From: Escherichia coli
Lineage (GTDB): Bacteria; Pseudomonadota; Gammaproteobacteria; Enterobacterales; Enterobacteriaceae
NCBI RefSeq assembly: GCF_030013205.1
Contig: NZ_CP122648.1
Reading direction: 5' to 3' (one strand)
DNA length: 64,000 nt
Below, in pieces: positions 16,784 through 23,401 of the stretch; the first letter of the stretch is position 1, and the number at the start of each line of letters is the position of its first letter. Under the pieces are notes generated by a model. The model saw nothing but the letters and a program-made list of their open reading frames with translations. It ran no database searches and was not told the origin of the DNA. The position numbers and the translations under genes were made by a program.

Positions 16784-19375
16784 ATGCATCAATCTGGTTC
16801 TGTTTCTCTTTGTCGTTCCGCAATATCTGTTCTGGTGGCTACAGCGTTATATTCACCCATAGCATTGGCATCAACAGTTGAGTATGGTGAGACAGTTGAT
16901 GGTGTTGTCCTGGAAAAAGATATCCAGCTGGTTTATGGGACCGCCAATAATACGAAAATCAATCCTGGCGGAGAACAGCATATTAAAGAATTTGGTATAA
17001 GTAGTAATACTGAAATTAACGGCGGGTATCAGTACATTGAAATGAATGGCACCGCAGAATACTCAGTATTAAATGATGGTTATCAAATTGTTCAAATGGG
17101 TGGCGCAGCAAACCAGACTACCCTCAATAATGGTGTGCTACAGGTTTATGGCGCAGCGAATGATACCACCATTAAAGGCGGGCGCTTAATTATTGAAAAA
17201 GATGGGATTACCGTCTTTGCCGCTATCGAAAAGGGAGGATTACTGGAGGTTAAAGAGGGGGGATTAGCATTTGCGGTAGATCAGAAAGCAGGCGGTGCGA
17301 TTAAAACAACCACGCGGGCCATGGAGGTATTCGGAACAAACCGTCTCGGTCAGTTCGATATCAAGGATGGTATTGCTAATAATATGCTGTTGGAAAACGG
17401 CGGAAGTTTGCGAGTTGAAGAAAATGACTTCGCTTATAATACCACTGTGGATAATGGCGGCTTACTGGAGGTTATGGATGGCGGGACTGCAACTGGCGTT
17501 GATAAAAAAGCAGGCGGAAAATTAATTGTCTCAACGAATGCGCTGGAAGTGAGTGGTACAAACAGTAAAGGCCAATTTAGTATAAAAGATGGTGTGTCCA
17601 AAAATTATGAACTGGATGATGGTTCCGGGCTCATTGTTATGGAGGATACGCAGGCCATTGACACTATCCTTGATGAGCATGCCACTATGCAATCGCTGGG
17701 AAAGGATACTGGTACGAGAGTGCAGGCAAATGCGGTATATGATCTCGGTCGATCAGATCAGAATGGAAGTATAACGTATTCCTCTAAAGCCATCTCTGAA
17801 AATATGGTTATCAACAATGGCCGCGCTAATGTCTGGGCTGGCACGATGGTTAACGTTTCAGTCAGAGGGAATGATGGCATTCTTGAGGTCATGAAGCCGC
17901 AAATAAATTATGCACCCGCTATGTTGGTGGGTAGTGTCGTGGTTTCTGAGGGCGCTTCTTTAAGAACGCATGGTGCCGTGGATACCAGCAAAGCGGATGT
18001 TTCGCTCGAAAATAGCGCATGGACCATCATTGCCGATAACACTACGACGAACCAAAACACTCGCCTCAACTTAGCCAACCTTGCGATGTCCGGCGCAAAT
18101 GTGATTATGATGGCTGAGCCAGTGACTCGTTCATCAGTGACGGCAAGTGCGGAAAATTTCATTACGTTGACCACCAATACCCTGTCGGGAAACGGCAATT
18201 TTTATATGCGTACCGATATGGCTAATCATCAGAGCGATCAGCTCAACGTGACCGGTCAGGCAACAGGTGATTTCAAAATATTTGTGACGGACACAGGGGC
18301 CAGCCCGGCAGCAGGTGATAGCCTTACACTGGTAACAACGGGCGGCGGTGATGCTGCATTTACGTTGGGCAATGCCGGAGGCATTGTTGATATCGGTACG
18401 TATGAATATACCTTGCTGGATAATGGCAACCATAGCTGGAGTCTGGCAGAGAATCGCGCGCAAATTACCCCTTCAACCACTGATGTGCTGAACATGGCAG
18501 CAGCACAACCGCTGGTATTTGATGCAGAACTGTACACCGTGCGTGAGCGTCTTGGTAGCGTAAAAGGCGTTAGTTACGATACGGCGATGTGGAGTTCGGC
18601 AATTAACACCCGCAACAACGTGACCACTGATGCGGGAGCTGGCTTTGAGCAAACATTGACGGGCCTGACGCTCGGTATCGATAGCCGTTTCTCCCGTGAA
18701 GAAAGCAGCACAATTCGCGGCTTGTTCTTTGGTTACTCTCATTCTGATATTGGTTTTGATCGCGGCGGCAAAGGCAATGTCGATAGCTACACCCTGGGGG
18801 CTTATGCCGGTTGGGAGCATCAGAACGGTGCCTATGTTGATGGAGTGGTGAAAGTTGACCGTTTTGCCAACACCATCCATGGCAAGATGGGTAATGGGGC
18901 AACAGCGTTTGGCGATTACAATAGTAACGGCGCGGGTGCTCATGTCGAGAGCGGGTTCCGTTGGGTTGACGGATTGTGGAGTGTTAGACCCTATCTCGCC
19001 TTTACCGGCTTTACCACAGATGGTCAGGACTACACGTTATCAAATGGCATGCGCGCGGATGTGGGAAATACCCGCATATTACGCGCTGAAGCGGGAACGG
19101 CGGTAAGCTATCACATGGACCTGCAAAACGGTACGACGCTGGAACCCTGGCTGAAAGCCGCCGTACGTCAGGAATACGCCGATTCTAACCAGGTGAAAGT
19201 TAATGACGATGGCAAATTTAATAATGATGTGGCTGGAACCCGTGGCGTTTATCAGGCTGGGATAAGGTCATCGTTTACCCCGACGTTAAGCGGTCATTTG
19301 TCAGTCAGTTATGGCAATGGCGCAGGGGTAGAATCGCCGTGGAATTCTCAGGCGGGTGTGGTCTGGACGTTCTGA
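16784..19375 (+). CDS. yejO: autotransporter adhesin-like protein YejO, uninterrupted
   Basis: 863 aa with an N-terminal signal-like segment, a repetitive G/N/T-rich passenger and a C-terminal beta-barrel ending in VVWTF. Confidence 0.9.
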   Translation: MHQSGSVSLCRSAISVLVATALYSPIALASTVEYGETVDGVVLEKDIQLVYGTANNTKINPGGEQHIKEFGISSNTEINGGYQYIEMNGTAEYSVLNDGYQIVQMGGAANQTTLNNGVLQVYGAANDTTIKGGRLIIEKDGITVFAAIEKGGLLEVKEGGLAFAVDQKAGGAIKTTTRAMEVFGTNRLGQFDIKDGIANNMLLENGGSLRVEENDFAYNTTVDNGGLLEVMDGGTATGVDKKAGGKLIVSTNALEVSGTNSKGQFSIKDGVSKNYELDDGSGLIVMEDTQAIDTILDEHATMQSLGKDTGTRVQANAVYDLGRSDQNGSITYSSKAISENMVINNGRANVWAGTMVNVSVRGNDGILEVMKPQINYAPAMLVGSVVVSEGASLRTHGAVDTSKADVSLENSAWTIIADNTTTNQNTRLNLANLAMSGANVIMMAEPVTRSSVTASAENFITLTTNTLSGNGNFYMRTDMANHQSDQLNVTGQATGDFKIFVTDTGASPAAGDSLTLVTTGGGDAAFTLGNAGGIVDIGTYEYTLLDNGNHSWSLAENRAQITPSTTDVLNMAAAQPLVFDAELYTVRERLGSVKGVSYDTAMWSSAINTRNNVTTDAGAGFEQTLTGLTLGIDSRFSREESSTIRGLFFGYSHSDIGFDRGGKGNVDSYTLGAYAGWEHQNGAYVDGVVKVDRFANTIHGKMGNGATAFGDYNSNGAGAHVESGFRWVDGLWSVRPYLAFTGFTTDGQDYTLSNGMRADVGNTRILRAEAGTAVSYHMDLQNGTTLEPWLKAAVRQEYADSNQVKVNDDGKFNNDVAGTRGVYQAGIRSSFTPTLSGHLSVSYGNGAGVESPWNSQAGVVWTF

Positions 19376-19441
19376 TAACAGAAAATAAACAGGCCGTGAT
19401 GTGTCGCGGTCTGTTTATCGAATTAAATGCAGATATAAAAA

Positions 19442-19468
19442 AACCAACCTTTACGGTTGGTTTTTTTT
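19442..19468 (+). terminator. Rho-independent terminator after yejO
   Basis: aaccaacc-tttac-ggttggtt stem-loop followed by a T8 run. Confidence 0.85.
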
Positions 19469-19470
19469 GG

Positions 19471-19500
19471 GATTTTTGGTCGCACGAGAGTATTCAAAAC
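19471..19500. repeat. distal att repeat (degenerate copy of the tRNA-Pro 3' end)
   Basis: gatttttggtcgcacgagagtattcaaaac compared with gatttggtcggcacgagaggatttgaacc at 32850-32878. The core ttggtcg(g)cacgagag lacks one g here. Confidence 0.75.
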
Positions 19501-19551
19501 ACGCCAATAACCTCTTGATTTAATTGAAGTCGAAAATTTTAAGTCAAAAAT

Positions 19552-19577
19552 CGTATAGCTTAACGTGTAGCTAAAAA
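19552..19577 (+). promoter_or_regulatory. arm-type repeat cgtatagcttaacgtgtagctaaaaa (copy of 32710-32735)
   Basis: 25/26 identity, in direct orientation, with the sequence just upstream of int. Contains the TAGCTA motif that recurs five times at 32661-32731. Confidence 0.6.
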
Positions 19578-20309
19578 TGTTTGCTGCAAAAGTATACAAT
19601 TTTAACCGTTATGACTCCCTGTTATCCGTTATCAAGCTGGTGGATGATCATGGATAACCCGTTATGGGAATCCCCATATCGGCATCAGGCCCACCAGCGC
19701 GACGCATTTTTTTAATTTCGCGGGTGTAAAAATTTGACGGGGCGGGCGGTCCCATAAGCAATGGGGGGTAGGGATTTCGATCCCCCCTCCTGAATGCAAT
19801 TTTTCGTATGTGGCTGTGCGTCCACCAGCTACGCCGGAATGGGGTATTCCGTTTCAACGGAACAGGTATGACGAACATGATCGCACCTTCTCCCGAAAAC
19901 GGTGCGACCTCCATAGAGGAAATGCCTATTCAGATCCCCGGTGATTTTCACCATTCAGAATCTGGAGGGTGAGTTTTCCAGTTTTCCCCAATGGGGGATT
20001 CTGGAACAATCAACGGGTTAGCGATTAAGCTGGCGAGTAATTAAACTGCGAAAATTTCGTAGTTTGTGAATATATTCCGGCTTGCTGGTTAACAGTCCTC
20101 AGATGTGAGGGATGTAGCCAGCGCAATTTTGCGTCGTCGGATATATCAACAACTTAGCACAAAAATAAGTCAGGCAGATACAAACCTCAAATTTGAGGTT
20201 TGCTTGTTTATCAACGGGTAAGGATAATCATCTCCCCTTTAAAGCCCCTTCGAAGGGTTACCCGTAGGCTTAATGTAAGGCTTGGCTGTAGCCTTACCGA
20301 ACGCTCCGC

Positions 20310-20489
20310 TCACCGTCGCGGCCTGTCCGGTTTCTTCCACTGATACGGCCTCACATCATCCTGCTGGTGGCGTTCCTGTTGCAGCACAACGGAAACAGGC
20401 GCTGAACACCTGTTAATTTTGCTTGCAGGTTGTTTGATTCCGGCAATGCTGCGGATCATCTCCAGCATATCGGCTTCGGTGATGGTCAT
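20310..20489 (-). CDS. hypothetical small protein (59 aa; below the ORF-track cutoff)
   Basis: Manual translation gives MTITEADMLEMIRSIAGIKQPASKINRCSAPVSVVLQQERHQQDDVRPYQWKKPDRPRR. An aaggtg SD-like sequence lies 7 nt upstream. Same strand as the operon. Confidence 0.35.
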   Translation of the reverse strand: MTITEADMLEMIRSIAGIKQPASKINRCSAPVSVVLQQERHQQDDVRPYQWKKPDRPRR

Positions 20490-20496
20490 GATTTAC

Positions 20497-20775
20497 ACCT
20501 TAGGAAATCTTAGGGGCTGGTTGACACTTTCCGGCTTAAGACCTTAACAAATCTTAACATCGCAGGTTGACACACTTGACACTTTTTCGCGAAAAACCTT
20601 ATCAAACCTTAGCATTTCTAAGCATGGCAACTTGACACTTTTCGCGATTTTTTCGGCTTTTTGACGTGGTAAATCTGGCGAAAGGCCAGTAATGGCGGGG
20701 CTTACAGCGAGGTTGACACTTTTTCGCGTTCAGAGTGTAAAGTGTCAACCTGGCAAGCTGCTCAACTTGACACTT
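20497..20775. repeat. composite repeat array: about 7 TTGACAC(TTTTTCGCG) boxes interleaved with ACCTTAnnAAAyCTTA boxes
   Basis: TTGACAC at 20521, 20567, 20576, 20632, 20713 and 20766, inverted at 20741-20748, degenerate at 20661. ACCTTA..CTTA units at about 20497, 20541 and 20596. Immediately 3' of the HTH terminase-like gene. Confidence 0.8.
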
Positions 20776-20782
20776 TTTGAGG

Positions 20783-21310
20783 TCATTGATGGCCTGATTT
20801 TTCCCACTCAGCCAGGGCGTTTAGTCCGGCTTCACTCCAGTTATCCAGCTCATCGGGACAATCACCTGCAACATAGCAGAGCTCACAACGCAGCATACGA
20901 ATTGCCAGCCTGGCATTTTCCCGAAAATCATACTGCTCAAAGTAATATTGCCCAGCATAATCCTCAAGGCAGATAGCACCATCATCAAGAAATTGCACTT
21001 CACAGCATAGTTCCCCGGCTGCATCCTGTACACGCTGCTGTATGTCATTGTCCGTTACTGGTGCAGGGATTTTACCGTCTCTGGCCTTAACTGCTTTCCA
21101 GAACTCGCCCCACGTCATTTCCAGCGTTCTCTCTGGCCACATTTCAGAAACTGTGTCTTTTCCCTGTGCTGGTGGGCTGTTCCGCTGCTCTGTCGCTTCC
21201 ACATCGATTTTTTTACCGGACATGACCACTTCGCCTTTCTCGATCCAGTCGTAAACTGTCTGGCGGCTTACGCCTTTGTGTTTGGCATATTCTGCCTTGC
21301 TCATAAACAT
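20783..21310 (-). CDS. Nu1-like winged-HTH protein (small terminase-like or Rpp-like packaging specificity factor)
   Basis: 175 aa. The N-terminus SKAEYAKHKGVSRQTVYDWIEKG resembles the N-terminal HTH of lambda Nu1 / TerS proteins. GAGGGGAAG SD upstream. Confidence 0.6.
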   Translation of the reverse strand: MFMSKAEYAKHKGVSRQTVYDWIEKGEVVMSGKKIDVEATEQRNSPPAQGKDTVSEMWPERTLEMTWGEFWKAVKARDGKIPAPVTDNDIQQRVQDAAGELCCEVQFLDDGAICLEDYAGQYYFEQYDFRENARLAIRMLRCELCYVAGDCPDELDNWSEAGLNALAEWEKSGHQ

Positions 21311-21361
21311 GACACTTCCCCTCAGACTGTATTAATGCGCCGGAAAGCGCGTGTATTTAAA

Positions 21362-23401
21362 TCATCCCAGGAACCGTTGAGCACCAATTAGTTGCGCGAA
21401 GTAATCGGCACCAGCGTTCCGAACAATTTCCAACTTAACGTTCTGATCATTGTTTCCTGCTGCAGGGACAATCCCACGATTCATAGCCAGCGCCCGGATC
21501 ACATCTTCAACACTTACAGCTTTAGCGGCAGCACCATTTTCATGGTTAATAATGCCCTGAATTAGCTTTTTCATGACCTCAAAATTAGAACCATCGATTT
21601 TCTCCTTAACACCTAATCCGGTGTACTGAGAGAGATAGCTTTTATAGGACGATGTGTTATTTCCATCAGATGAAGGGGCATAAATATCAATAATCTGATC
21701 AATCGTATTTTTGCCGCGTTTCAGGTATAGCATTACCTGCCGATCTAAGGCGGCAATGCCTTCCAGCATCGTCGGGAAGCTGGCAAAACGGGCATTTGGC
21801 CCCGATTCCAGGGTAGCCCCTTTTTGTCCTGCGAAATTAAGATTTCCGGGATTGTTATTCCTGATCCCTCTGGATAAATATGCAGATCTGTTTACTTGAT
21901 TTGAAAATCCCTGCAATCCTCCAGGCCAGACCTTACCCGGATTGTTTTTTTGCCACTCCTGCACTTCGTTAAAATAATCAAAGTTGAAACGCCCCTCCAG
22001 CCCTTTCATTTCCTCACTGGTGGTAGGTGTGTCATTTGTAGGAATAGCCAATCCAGCTACTGTTCCGGCTGTAGCCCCAAGAAGACTTCCACCAACAACA
22101 CGGGCGGCAACTCCGGTCGTTGTGGCTGCCACAGCACCAACTCTCGATGGTCCAGCAAGTACTGCGGCCCCAAAAAGCCAGGGATGTTCAACCGCAAAAC
22201 CAACAAACCCGCTAAGTGCCTTAACAACCTTTGCAACGTTTTCGGCAAAATTGTTCAGGTCGTTATTAAAATCCGGGCCATTTACGTACTTACCAAGTTT
22301 ATCCAGCCCCGTTTCTACATCCGTCAGAATCCTTTTAAAGTTCTCACCATTCATGAAATTCAGGGCAGCATTCGTGGCACCATCAGACATTCTGATTAAA
22401 GCGTCTTCATTCCCCGCCATTGCTCCCTGAAATCCGCTGGTAAGCCGATCCCAGTTTTTTTCCAGGTTACTGGTAATATTCTGATATTTACTTGTATGTG
22501 CAGAGGTCAGTAACGAATCATTCTGCGCTGCACGTAACGAAAACTCTTTGTTGAGTTCAGGTATTTTGTCCTGATATTTGACTAACTGGTTAGTAAGACC
22601 AAAATTTACCCATCCAAGCCCCATTCCTCTGAAATTGCTCTGGGTAAGACCAGTTCCCTGATATTCCTTTGCCAGCGCTGCAACCTTTTTCAGGAATACA
22701 GGCAGGTTTTCAGTCGCGTTTTTATCAGGATTTAGCCCCAGATTAAGCAGGCCGACGCGGGCAGGATGCGATATATCATTTTGTGCTGCTGCCAGTGTAT
22801 TGAGCACATTGCCAACACCGGAAAAATAAGGCGAATAAGTGCTTTCTGCCGCCTTTAACTCTCCTGGCGTTGCCACCAGCTCATCTGCATTTTTCTGTTT
22901 CTCTACAACACTACGGGACATCATGCCAAAGCCAAACGGTCCGGCAACGCCCATAACCGAGAGTTTTGTTCCCCACGATACGGTTGTTTTAAACAGGTTG
23001 TTTAATCTTGAAGTGGTCGTCTGTAGTGTAGAATTGATCTGCTTGTAAGTTTTCAGCGTCTGTTGGGCATTTTTCCCCAGCCCGCTGAGATACTTATCAA
23101 ACATCGTTTCGCCGCGACCTTTATAGTTGCTTACGAACGAATCTGCTGTTTTTCCGCTGCCGACAAAGCGCCCTTTTTCGTCCCTCACTCTCCCGGATAC
23201 ATCCGGTCCTGTCCGACCAGATTTTGCCGCCACGGGTAAGCCTGCCCCCACGCTGCGCCCACTTTGCCCCGGTATTTTCATCGGCGTTCCGGCAGGGCCG
23301 ATCATCAGCCCGTTGCGATACTTTTCAAAAATTGCCTCAAGCCGTTTGAGGTGTTCTTCATTAACGTCCAGCGTCAGAACTGGCATCTGATTACCTGACA
23401 T
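21362..23401 (-). CDS. tape-measure-like virion protein with C-terminal globular domain (RNNNPGN motif)
   Basis: 679 aa with a helical N-terminal two thirds and a Gly/Ala-rich hydrophobic segment (HPWLFGAAVLAGPSRVGAVAATTTGVAARVVGG...). Directly preceded by a two-frame chaperone-like gene, and its start overlaps the stop of the -1 frame (TAATG). Confidence 0.6.
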   Translation of the reverse strand: MSGNQMPVLTLDVNEEHLKRLEAIFEKYRNGLMIGPAGTPMKIPGQSGRSVGAGLPVAAKSGRTGPDVSGRVRDEKGRFVGSGKTADSFVSNYKGRGETMFDKYLSGLGKNAQQTLKTYKQINSTLQTTTSRLNNLFKTTVSWGTKLSVMGVAGPFGFGMMSRSVVEKQKNADELVATPGELKAAESTYSPYFSGVGNVLNTLAAAQNDISHPARVGLLNLGLNPDKNATENLPVFLKKVAALAKEYQGTGLTQSNFRGMGLGWVNFGLTNQLVKYQDKIPELNKEFSLRAAQNDSLLTSAHTSKYQNITSNLEKNWDRLTSGFQGAMAGNEDALIRMSDGATNAALNFMNGENFKRILTDVETGLDKLGKYVNGPDFNNDLNNFAENVAKVVKALSGFVGFAVEHPWLFGAAVLAGPSRVGAVAATTTGVAARVVGGSLLGATAGTVAGLAIPTNDTPTTSEEMKGLEGRFNFDYFNEVQEWQKNNPGKVWPGGLQGFSNQVNRSAYLSRGIRNNNPGNLNFAGQKGATLESGPNARFASFPTMLEGIAALDRQVMLYLKRGKNTIDQIIDIYAPSSDGNNTSSYKSYLSQYTGLGVKEKIDGSNFEVMKKLIQGIINHENGAAAKAVSVEDVIRALAMNRGIVPAAGNNDQNVKLEIVRNAGADYFAQLIGAQRFLG

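What the first reader, a model, noticed from the sequence alone, without database searches (positions are those of the whole stretch)
19580..20310. About 0.7 kb hairpin-dense non-coding tail of the island with a lambdoid cosN-like G/C block
No credible ORF exists here; the 88 aa track ORF looks spurious. The stretch is packed with strong local structures: gggggg...tcccccc (19763-19787), tcgcacc...ggtgcga (19881-19907), aaacctcaaatttgaggttt (20182-20201), cccttcgaaggg and gtaaggct...agccttac (20240-20300). There are also three CCGTTAT repeats (19606, 19626, 19659). At 19739-19753 the sequence acGGGGCGGGCGGTCCC resembles the lambda cohesive-end region acGGGCGGCGACCT (from memory) and is flanked by cgcgggt, as in lambda. 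The region could hold the satellite cos site, a structured ncRNA, or both.
Basis: partly seen in the sequence, partly recalled or inferred. Interest (0 to 1): 0.55.

Follow-up and report, generated by a model that had tools for sequence, protein, structure and literature searches.

The report
Phage-satellite cos packaging site, HK97/phiP27 type
The G/C block at the non-coding end of this 13.4-kb E. coli island is a DNA-packaging (cos) site of the HK97/phiP27 phage type, not the lambda type, so the island most likely spreads by borrowing a helper's packaging enzyme, which is a familiar strategy.

Summary
In detail: 19580-20310 is non-coding, richer in dyads than shuffled sequence, and has the stated repeats and G/C block.

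Window 19709-19755 is 100% identical to the annotated cos region of Stx2e phage phiP27. It also aligns in register with the ends of the Burkholderia phage phiE125 and phi1026b records; a 10-base 3' overhang is reported for phi644-2, with the same sequence serving as cos in phiE125. By homology, 19739-19748 (GGGGCGGGCG) is the 10-nt overhang, 19709-19738 is the small-terminase (TerS) side, and 19749-19790 carries a covarying dyad and a C-tract. This is the HK97-like, HNH-dependent cos family, not lambda cosN.

In phages the site lies between the HNH and TerS genes. In E. coli the same about 150-bp module sits at the tail of many PICI-type satellites, including capsid-forming PICIs (cf-PICIs). 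The island has no terminase or HNH gene, so a helper must cut it.

Chi sites flank the cos in the orientation that would stop RecBCD.

The remaining about 500 bp consists of conserved palindrome-rich modules of unknown role. No Rfam family matches and the covariation is weak, so an ncRNA is not supported.

This is a new member of a known kind. Nothing here was tested experimentally.

The parts
19475..19490 (.). Island boundary. This is the att core repeat TTTGGTCGCACGAGAG, a copy with a 1-nt deletion of the 3' end of tRNA-Pro at 32852-32868.
19552..19575 (+). Repeat CGTATAGCTTAACGTGTAGCTAAA. It recurs directly at 32710-32733 and inverted at 32681-32703 beside the integrase gene. It is a candidate arm-type integrase or excisionase binding site (inferred).
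   Evidence: the left end up to 19646 is 94% conserved in island L009, which sits at the same integration site
19602..19632 (+). Two direct repeats TTAWCCGTTAT (19602-19612 and 19622-19632). They are conserved in satellites with other integrases. Their role is unknown; a cosB-like binding site is possible (inferred).
19636..19643 (+). Chi octamer GCTGGTGG, 95 bp from the predicted cos cut. It lies on the strand that would end 3' at that cos end, which is the orientation RecBCD recognises.
   Evidence: the orientation rule is textbook knowledge
19659..19682 (.). Imperfect 24-bp palindrome CCGTTATGGGAATCCCCATATCGG. Relatives carry different palindromes at the same place, for example CCGATACCGAGATCCCGGTATCGG in L009 and TTCCACCAATGGTGGAA in L011.
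19691..19698 (-). Chi on the - strand (box CCCACCAGCG), 40 bp left of cosN. It is conserved in nearly all satellite copies of this cos and absent from the phage copies.
19709..19738 (.). cos left half, TTTTTAATTTCGCGGGTGTAAAAATTTGAC, identical to phiP27. This is the side where phages have TerS, so it is the presumed TerS recognition side (inferred from covariation with TerS type).
19739..19748 (.). cosN GGGGCGGGCG, the predicted 10-nt 3' cohesive end. The predicted nicks fall after 19748 on the + strand and between 19738 and 19739 on the - strand.
   Evidence: phiP27 cos annotation; ends of the phiE125 and phi1026b records; published overhang 3'-GCGGGCGAAG-5' (PMC2920897)
19749..19790 (.). cos right half. 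It contains GTCCC...GGGAT enclosing CCCAT-AAGCA-ATGGG, then GGGAT-TTCG-ATCCC, then the C-tract CCCCCCTCC. The dyad covaries in phage relatives, and the C-tract is shared with HK97, phiP27 and phiE125.
19659..19809 (.). The complete cos module shared by E. coli satellites at 80-97% identity. It always ends at TTTTTCGTAT.
19806..20073 (.). Conserved non-coding block C, dense in hairpins. It is 83-99% identical in five other satellites, where an iteron segment of about 250-283 bp (GCGGGTTAT) separates it from cos.
19822..19829 (-). Chi on the - strand, 73 bp right of the predicted cut, in the orientation recognised by RecBCD entering at that cos end.
19940..20156 (.). Conserved non-coding block D. 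It accounts for most of the roughly 1000 of 5426 E. coli genomes that match the tail (80-90% identity band), including O157 islands whose cos is lambda-type. It holds the 23-bp palindrome AAACTGCGAAAATTTCGTAGTTT (20043-20065) and hairpins whose sequences differ between relatives while their positions are kept.
20009..20222 (+). Three direct copies of ATCAACGGGTTAG at 20009, 20145 (3 mismatches) and 20210 (1 mismatch). They share the CGGGTTA core with the iterons found in other islands' tails.
20181..20202 (.). Perfect 22-bp palindrome CAAACCTCAAATTTGAGGTTTG, followed by a T-rich tail on the + strand (terminator-like).
20310..20489 (-). Last ORF of the island operon (59 aa). It is an internally shortened relative of a 93-aa protein that occupies the same position in O157 islands.

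Best explanation
The tail holds the island's cos site, of the HK97/phiP27/phiE125 family.

Shown:
- The island (19.49-32.85 kb, about 13.36 kb, inserted at tRNA-Pro) is a PICI-type phage satellite. It has an integrase, a small HTH regulator at the alpA position, a RepA-type helicase with an adjacent iteron origin, and PerC.
- It has no terminase, HNH or capsid gene.
- It carries a 150-bp module whose 45-bp core is identical to a phage cos.

Inferred mechanism:
1. After induction, excision and replication into concatemers, a helper's packaging enzyme acts on the island. That enzyme comprises a P27-family small terminase, a large terminase and an HNH endonuclease.
2. The enzyme binds the left half (19709-19738) and nicks both strands 10 bp apart around 19739-19748, leaving 10-nt 3' cohesive ends.
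3. It then packages leftwards, through att and the integrase gene, until it reaches the next cos.
4. A monomer would fit a small capsid of the cf-PICI type. A trimer (40.1 kb) is 94% of the phiP27 genome length.
5. The correctly oriented Chi sites, 95 bp and 73 bp inside the two ends, would stop RecBCD from degrading cut or injected DNA.

The remaining tail (19806-20310) consists of cis-acting or 3'-untranslated modules shared among satellites. Their function is unassigned.
For: - Homology to phiP27: 45/45 identity across the annotated cos, which lies between the phage's HNH and TerS genes.
- Register with phage record ends: the phiE125 and phi1026b records start at the base homologous to window 19738, and the phiE125 record ends with CGCCCGCTTC. 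This matches the 10-base 3' extensions reported for phi644-2, a sequence said to serve as cos in phiE125 (PMC2920897).
- The HK97 ends align in the same register.
- In 105 loci found by pattern, phages show TerL-TerS | cos | HNH, whereas enterobacterial satellites carry the site at the island tail.
- The left half tracks TerS type. phiP27 and phiE125 TerS are 55% identical and share the left half. A prophage whose TerS is 19% identical has a different left half, with the break at the left border of cosN (inside the 10-mer as aligned), while its right half and HNH match phiP27.
- The dyad right of cosN is kept through compensatory changes: 87.7% of cells paired against 31-52% in slid controls, 6 of 9 pairs changed on both sides, and 0 of 500 shuffles reached the score.
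- The module is conserved at the same tail position in islands with different integrases, replicases and cargo. It is present in 74-180 of 5426 complete E. coli genomes.
- The island has no TerS or HNH remnant.
- Chi positions and density.
Against: - No experiment bears on this island. Cleavage, overhang polarity and the identity of the helper are all inferred by homology.
- The host genome ETEC4079 shows no phiP27-type TerS/TerL prophage at megablast sensitivity. Such prophages occur in only 18 of 5426 genomes, fewer than the satellites that carry the site.
- Loci retrieved by the 24-nt pattern are conserved there by construction, so only the BLAST-derived E. coli loci test conservation of the left half. 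One of those, L013, has a substitution.
- Covariation in a dyad cannot separate a DNA or RNA hairpin from a symmetric protein-binding site.
Confidence: 0.8

Rival explanations
1. The cos block is a dead relic left by recombination with a phiP27-like phage. The island is no longer packaged through it, or is immobile.
For: No cognate helper was found in the same genome. The phage mosaic break at the cos site shows that recombination happens there. This island lacks the 283-bp iteron segment that follows cos in most relatives, and the junction has a GTAT microhomology that suggests a deletion.
Against: The 45-bp core is identical to a phage site. The module sits at the same place in many satellites that differ elsewhere by up to 20%. 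The island's integrase, helicase and its own iteron origin look intact.
Confidence: 0.1
2. Part of the tail (blocks C and D, 19806-20310) encodes one or more structured RNAs, or is a structured 3' UTR of the island operon. This could be true alongside the cos site.
For: The blocks are conserved in many islands whatever their cos type. Several hairpins keep their position while changing sequence, for example CCCCAATGGGG, CCACCGATGGTGG and CCTCAAATTGAGG, or GGTGATTTTCACC and GGTCATTATGACC. Folding z-scores are strongly negative.
Against: There is no Rfam match and no promoter-like site. The consensus fold gives only short isolated hairpins with a small covariation term on either strand. The longest element is a near-perfect 23-bp palindrome with a 1-nt centre, which is typical of a protein operator.
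Confidence: 0.2
3. The block is a lambda-type cosN, cut by lambda-like terminase to give a 12-nt 5' overhang.
For: The string ACGGGGCGG.CG is shared with lambda-type sites such as the one in the O157 island L003.
Against: The lambda 12-mer is absent at up to 2 mismatches. There is no alignment with a lambda-type cos. The site matches HK97-type sites perfectly and in register.
Confidence: 0.02
4. The tail is a replication origin or another iteron-bound element rather than a packaging region.
For: There are three ATCAACGGGTTAG copies. They are related to the GCGGGTTAT iterons that flank an AT-rich stretch next to cos in other islands.
Against: This island lacks that iteron segment. It has a classical iteron array (TCCTCACTTTT, at least 8 copies) in the AT-rich stretch right after its helicase gene. 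This rival does not explain the cos homology.
Confidence: 0.08

Closest known systems
cos site of Stx2e phage phiP27 (NC_003356, feature 21806..21815)
   Same: 45 bp are identical, including the annotated 10-bp cos. The right-hand dyad and C-tract are related: 87% identity over 82 bp.
   Different: In phiP27 the site lies between the HNH and TerS genes. Here it lies at the end of a satellite that has neither gene. Further left, the TerS start is replaced by a Chi-containing box and palindromes.
cos of Burkholderia phages phiE125, phi1026b and phi644-2, and of HK97 (HNH-dependent terminases)
   Same: Same register and the same anatomy: AT-rich TTTCGCGGGYGTRAAAATTYGAC, then a 10-nt overhang, then GTCCC, a dyad and a C-tract.
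   Different: The overhang differs at 2 of 10 positions from phiE125. HK97 is more distant. Those are phage genome ends; this is a satellite copy.
SaPIbov5 and other cos-type SaPIs of Staphylococcus aureus (Quiles-Puchalt 2014, as cited)
   Same: A satellite without its own terminase carries the cos of helper phages whose packaging needs an HNH protein.
   Different: Different phylum and no sequence relationship. The helper here is unknown.
EcCICFT073-type E. coli PICIs with cos1/cos2 and Rpp (PMC6092414, PMC6739421)
   Same: Same island architecture, with a cos near the end of the island. The flank on the TerS side differs from the phage's.
   Different: Those sites are lambda-type, and Rpp retargets lambda TerS. 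This site is HK97-type. The neighbouring 175-aa HTH protein shows no similarity to Rpp by sequence or by fold search.
Capsid-forming PICIs (cf-PICIs; bioRxiv 2022.09.08.507074)
   Same: E. coli cf-PICIs of the L012 type carry the same tail module at 88-95% identity, downstream of terL.
   Different: cf-PICIs encode HNH, TerS, TerL and capsid proteins, and this island does not. They also hold a second, diverged cos-like site between hnh and terS.

Membership tests
HK97/phiP27-type cos site | Sequence homology to a cos annotated or mapped in a phage | tested here: met
   45/45 identity to the phiP27 cos region. 27 of 30 positions in the left half and 8 of 10 in the overhang match phiE125.
HK97/phiP27-type cos site | The cut positions coincide with phage genome ends (10-nt 3' overhang) | tested here: met
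   Met by alignment only. The phiE125 and phi1026b records begin at the base homologous to 19738, and the phiE125 record ends with the complement of the 10-mer. The overhang is published in PMC2920897.
HK97/phiP27-type cos site | A conserved dyad and C-tract on the HNH side of the cut | tested here: met
   a compensatory GTTCC...GGAAT variant occurs in L011 and L075
HK97/phiP27-type cos site | Located between an HNH endonuclease gene and terS | tested here: not met
   No HNH or TerS, and no remnant of either, is found in the tail or the island. This is expected for a satellite copy and applies to all satellite loci.
HK97/phiP27-type cos site | Cleaved and packaged by a TerS-TerL-HNH enzyme | not testable with these tools
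   Needs end mapping of particle DNA or transduction assays.
Lambda-type cos (cosQ-cosN-cosB) | cosN 12-mer GGGCGGCGACCT or a close variant | tested here: not met
   No match within 2 mismatches in 19-21 kb. A genuine lambda-type site from island L003 does not align.
PICI-type phage satellite | About 10-15 kb, with an integrase at one end, a small HTH regulator of the alpA type, a replicase with an adjacent origin, and no full phage structural or lysis set | tested here: met
   13.36 kb between att repeats. Integrase, HTH regulator, RepA helicase, PerC and ProQ/FinO are present. There are iterons next to the helicase gene. The alpA assignment rests on position, size and the RefSeq HTH label, not on a family search.
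PICI-type phage satellite | Induced and transferred by a helper phage | not testable with these tools
   No experimental data are available.
Capsid-forming PICI | Own capsid, portal, protease, HNH, TerS and TerL | tested here: not met
   Pfam and PHROG scans of the ten ORFs from 20310 to 26647 find none of these. tblastn with phiP27 HNH and TerS against the whole window finds nothing significant; the cf-PICI proteins themselves were not searched against this window.
Rpp-type packaging redirection | An island protein homologous to RppA/RppC next to cos | tested here: not met
   The 175-aa protein has no PDB sequence hit to Rpp or gpNu1. The Foldseek search of its model (pLDDT 89) matches only Xis/BldC-like winged helices in its N-terminus.
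Known RNA family (Rfam 15) | A covariance-model match | tested here: not met
   Nothing reaches the gathering score. The weak E <= 10 hits are mostly on the yejO terminator outside the island; one sub-threshold chance match (a eukaryotic lncRNA model) lies at 19869-19962.

The most novel reading that the evidence does not exclude
The tail cos is a portable cassette that lets islands with no capsid genes parasitise other satellites, making this island a satellite of a satellite. Under this reading the 13.4-kb island would be cut and packaged as a monomer into the small capsids of a co-resident cf-PICI, using that element's HNH-TerS-TerL. Three points leave this open. The cassette is shared at 88-95% identity with cf-PICIs (which are 11.6-15.5 kb). 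phiP27-type terminase prophages are far rarer (18 genomes) than cf-PICIs of this type (161 genomes). The island has no terminase of its own.
Probability: 0.12. Interest if true: 0.8.

Novelty: new member of a known kind. Interest (0 to 1): 0.4.

Why it matters
The result assigns a concrete, testable packaging site and predicted cut positions to an uncharacterised island in porcine ETEC. It also points to the class of helper to look for: phages or cf-PICIs with a P27-family TerS plus HNH.

It shows that E. coli PICI-type satellites use at least two unrelated cos families, lambda-type and HK97-type. One about 150-bp HK97-type module is shared by satellites with different integrases, replicases and cargo.

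The Chi sites flanking the site suggest that satellites without a RecBCD inhibitor protect their cut ends in this way. That could be tested with point mutations.

Tried and rejected
- Rfam at the gathering threshold and at E <= 10: nothing in the tail.
- Decayed HNH or TerS pseudogene to the right of cos: no tblastn signal.
- Lambda cosN: absent.
- The 88-aa, 54-aa and other small ORFs: no family hits and no conserved frame.
- The 175-aa HTH protein as an Rpp or TerS homologue: no PDB sequence hit. Its homologues are unannotated and restricted to Enterobacterales. The model is good, but only its N-terminal Xis-like winged helix matches known structures. Its role is left open.
- A resident helper in ETEC4079: no phiP27-type TerS/TerL. 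The second copy of the cos reported for that genome could not be located; the thiM-rcnR locus, where a sister strain keeps a second satellite, holds a different island with no cos.
- Orphan cos copies in Caballeronia pedi as possible satellites: the gene content is uninformative.
- An extended consensus RNA structure for block D: not found.

Full report
**Context.** The window is E. coli chromosome, 100% identical to porcine strain ETEC4079. The gene order is nap-ccm-narP-yejO (yejO ends at 19375; terminator 19437-19467), then an island, then tRNA-Pro (32854-32930, - strand), then yejM. The island is bounded by the repeat TTTGGTCG(G)CACGAGAG at 19475-19490 and 32852-32868, which makes it about 13.36 kb. 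All of its genes are on the - strand:
- an integrase;
- a small HTH regulator at the alpA position;
- a RepA-family helicase, followed by an AT-rich stretch with at least 8 TCCTCACTTTT iterons;
- ProQ/FinO and PerC;
- a DUF2213 protein;
- a 679-aa transglycosylase-like protein;
- a 175-aa HTH protein;
- a 59-aa ORF ending at 20310.

This is the layout of a PICI-type phage satellite. The finding covers the non-coding end of the island, opposite the integrase.

**Observation.** The stretch is non-coding on four grounds. RefSeq annotates nothing there in the identical genome. The small ORFs hit no family. The open frames across the site differ in length and frame between relatives. The 88-aa ORF crosses DNA that is intergenic in the homologous phages. 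The stretch folds better than shuffled sequence on both strands (z = -5.6 and -6.2), so the signal comes from DNA dyads rather than strand-specific RNA structure.

**What the G/C block is.** A search of phage genomes returned the annotated cos site of Stx2e phage phiP27 and the termini of several Burkholderia phage records.
- Window 19709-19755 is 45/45 identical to phiP27. The phage's 10-bp cos feature, which lies between its HNH endonuclease and TerS genes, corresponds to window 19739-19748, GGGGCGGGCG.
- The GenBank records of phiE125 and phi1026b begin at the base homologous to window 19738, and the phiE125 record ends with CGCCCGCTTC.
- A paper on the related phage phi644-2 reports ten-base 3' extensions, 3'-GCGGGCGAAG-5' and 5'-CGCCCGCTTC-3', and says this sequence serves as the cos site in phiE125 (PMC2920897). 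In window orientation that reads TTCGAC|GAAGCGGGCG|GTCCC, against TTTGAC|GGGGCGGGCG|GTCCC here.
- The HK97 ends align in the same register, with the same downstream C-tract.
- The lambda cosN 12-mer is not present, and a real lambda-type cos from an O157 island does not align with this site.

**Anatomy across relatives.** A 24-nt pattern from the left half found 12 stretches in species-representative genomes and 93 in IMG/VR.
- In phages of Burkholderia, Caballeronia, Comamonas, Pseudaeromonas and E. coli, TerL and a P27-family TerS lie directly to the left, and an HNH gene lies 100-180 bp to the right in almost all loci.
- The left half tracks the TerS type. phiP27 and phiE125 TerS are 55% identical and share it. 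A prophage in strain STEC316 has the phiP27 right half and HNH gene, a TerS only 19% identical, and an unrelated left half; the break falls at the left border of cosN, inside the 10-mer as aligned. From this I infer that the left half is the TerS recognition side.
- To the right of the cut, a two-tier dyad is kept through compensatory changes in 30 phage sequences: 87.7% of cells are paired against 31-52% in slid controls, 6 of 9 pairs changed on both sides, and 0 of 500 shuffles reached the covariation score. A T-run and a C-tract follow.
- The island has the equivalent elements: GTCCC...GGGAT around CCCAT-AAGCA-ATGGG, then GGGAT-TTCG-ATCCC, then CCCCCCTCC.

**Satellite copies.** In E. coli the module 19659-19809 recurs at 80-97% identity at the tail of islands with other integration sites, integrases, replicases and cargo: thiM/rcnR, clpS, dinD, yifB and the same proL site.
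- The 106-bp core is in 74 of 5426 complete genomes, and a longer tail version is in 180.
- Carriers include cf-PICIs with the order hnh-terS-terL-cos-end. These also hold a second, diverged cos-like site between hnh and terS.
- Satellite copies differ from phage copies on the TerS side. Where the phage has the terS start, the satellites have the box CCCACCAGCG, a palindrome whose sequence differs between islands, and two TTAWCCGTTAT repeats.
- The island has no terminase or HNH gene and no remnant of one, so a helper must cut the site.
- No phiP27-type TerS/TerL is detectable in ETEC4079 at megablast level, and only 18 of 5426 genomes have one. The helper is therefore unknown.
- On size, a monomer falls within the range of the cf-PICI contigs (11.6-15.5 kb), and three copies make 40.1 kb, which is 94% of the phiP27 genome.

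**Chi sites.** CCCACCAGC is the complement of Chi. The window has 30 Chi octamers against 2.0 +/- 1.5 expected from shuffles. Seventeen of them lie in the island (1.27 per kb, on both strands) compared with 0.26 per kb in the flanking chromosome. The sites at 19636 (+) and 19822 (-) lie 95 bp and 73 bp inside the two predicted cos ends. Each is on the strand that would end 3' at that end, which is the orientation RecBCD recognises (textbook rule; the protective role here is my inference). The Chi on the - strand 33-41 bp left of cosN is conserved in most satellite copies and absent from the phage copies. A full-text search found no paper describing this for satellites.

**The rest of the tail.**
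- In most relatives a segment of about 250-283 bp follows cos. It has GCGGGTTAT iterons on both sides of an AT-rich stretch. It is missing here, and the junction has a GTAT microhomology.
- Block C (19806-20073) and block D (19940-20156) are shared with other satellites. Block D accounts for most of the roughly 1000 of 5426 genomes that match the tail, including O157 islands whose cos is lambda-type and lies upstream.
- These blocks contain a near-invariant 23-bp palindrome, three ATCAACGGGTTAG repeats, and several hairpins that keep their position while changing sequence.
- RNAalifold finds only isolated short hairpins with weak covariation on either strand. Rfam finds nothing, and no promoter-like site is present.
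- I cannot assign a function to these blocks. Protein-binding sites, or the structured 3' end of the operon transcript, are the likeliest options.

**Verdict.** The cos call is right and precisely placed. The lambda label is wrong. The ncRNA idea is unsupported. The result is a new member of a known kind, a satellite carrying its helper's cos: the Gram-negative, HK97-type counterpart of SaPIbov5, and a second cos family alongside the lambda-type sites of EcCICFT073. Cleavage, polarity, helper identity and the role of Chi all remain inferences.

Noticed in passing
window 19493-32853 (the whole island); Chi at 19636, 19691, 19822, 20363 and 13 further positions: Chi (GCTGGTGG) is about 5-fold denser in the island (17 sites, 1.27 per kb, both strands) than in the flanking chromosome (0.26 per kb). 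Other satellites with this cos have 0.6-1.4 per kb.
   Followed up: partly
window 20490-20782: The intergenic stretch between the 175-aa HTH gene and the 59-aa ORF holds at least six TTGACACTTT(TT)(CGCG) repeats, direct and inverted, plus CTTAAC/CTTAGG repeats. These may be binding sites for the neighbouring HTH protein. O157 islands have a lambda-type cos at this position.
   Followed up: no
window 26700-27115: An AT-rich stretch (GC about 0.33) directly after the RepA helicase gene carries at least 8 TCCTCACTTTT iterons in both orientations. It is the probable replication origin of the island.
   Followed up: partly
L004 8150-8433 (also L011, L012, L029, L091); window junction 19806-19809: Most related satellites have an iteron segment of about 250-283 bp right after cos: GCGGGTTAT x3, an AT-rich stretch, then ATAACCCGC x3. 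This island lacks it, and the junction has a GTAT microhomology.
   Followed up: partly
L012 5017 and 7858: E. coli cf-PICIs carry two cos-like sites. One is a diverged copy between hnh and terS. The other is the phiP27-like copy at the tail, after terL. It is not known which one their own terminase uses. The intergenic type is in 161 of 5426 genomes.
   Followed up: partly
L003 about 6559 and 7426 (O157 island next to phoQ): This island has two lambda-type cosN sequences (GGGCGGCGACCT, at most 1 mismatch), recalling cos1/cos2 of EcCICFT073. It shares block D and the small terminal ORF with the island studied here.
   Followed up: partly
L014 2440-2570 (STEC316 prophage): The mosaic breakpoint between two phage packaging modules falls at the left border of cosN. 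The HNH side is identical to phiP27, and the TerS side is unrelated.
   Followed up: yes
window 20783-21310 (- strand): The 175-aa protein belongs to an unannotated family restricted to Enterobacterales. Its model is confident (pLDDT 89): an N-terminal Xis/BldC-like winged helix plus a C-terminal domain with no structural match. It co-occurs with the 59-aa ORF and this cos type in L016, L054 and L093.
   Followed up: partly
L018, L019, L025 (Caballeronia pedi); L020 (Scandinavium); L023 (Salmonella): One Caballeronia genome has a phage-type copy of the cos (with TerS, TerL and HNH) and two orphan copies without adjacent terminase genes. Orphan copies also occur in Scandinavium and Salmonella. 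These may be satellites in other genera.
   Followed up: partly
window 36646-36671 and 32854-32930: An L25 ribosomal-protein leader (Rfam RF03131) and tRNA-Pro(GGG) are the only Rfam and ARAGORN hits in the window. They are ordinary chromosomal features.
   Followed up: no
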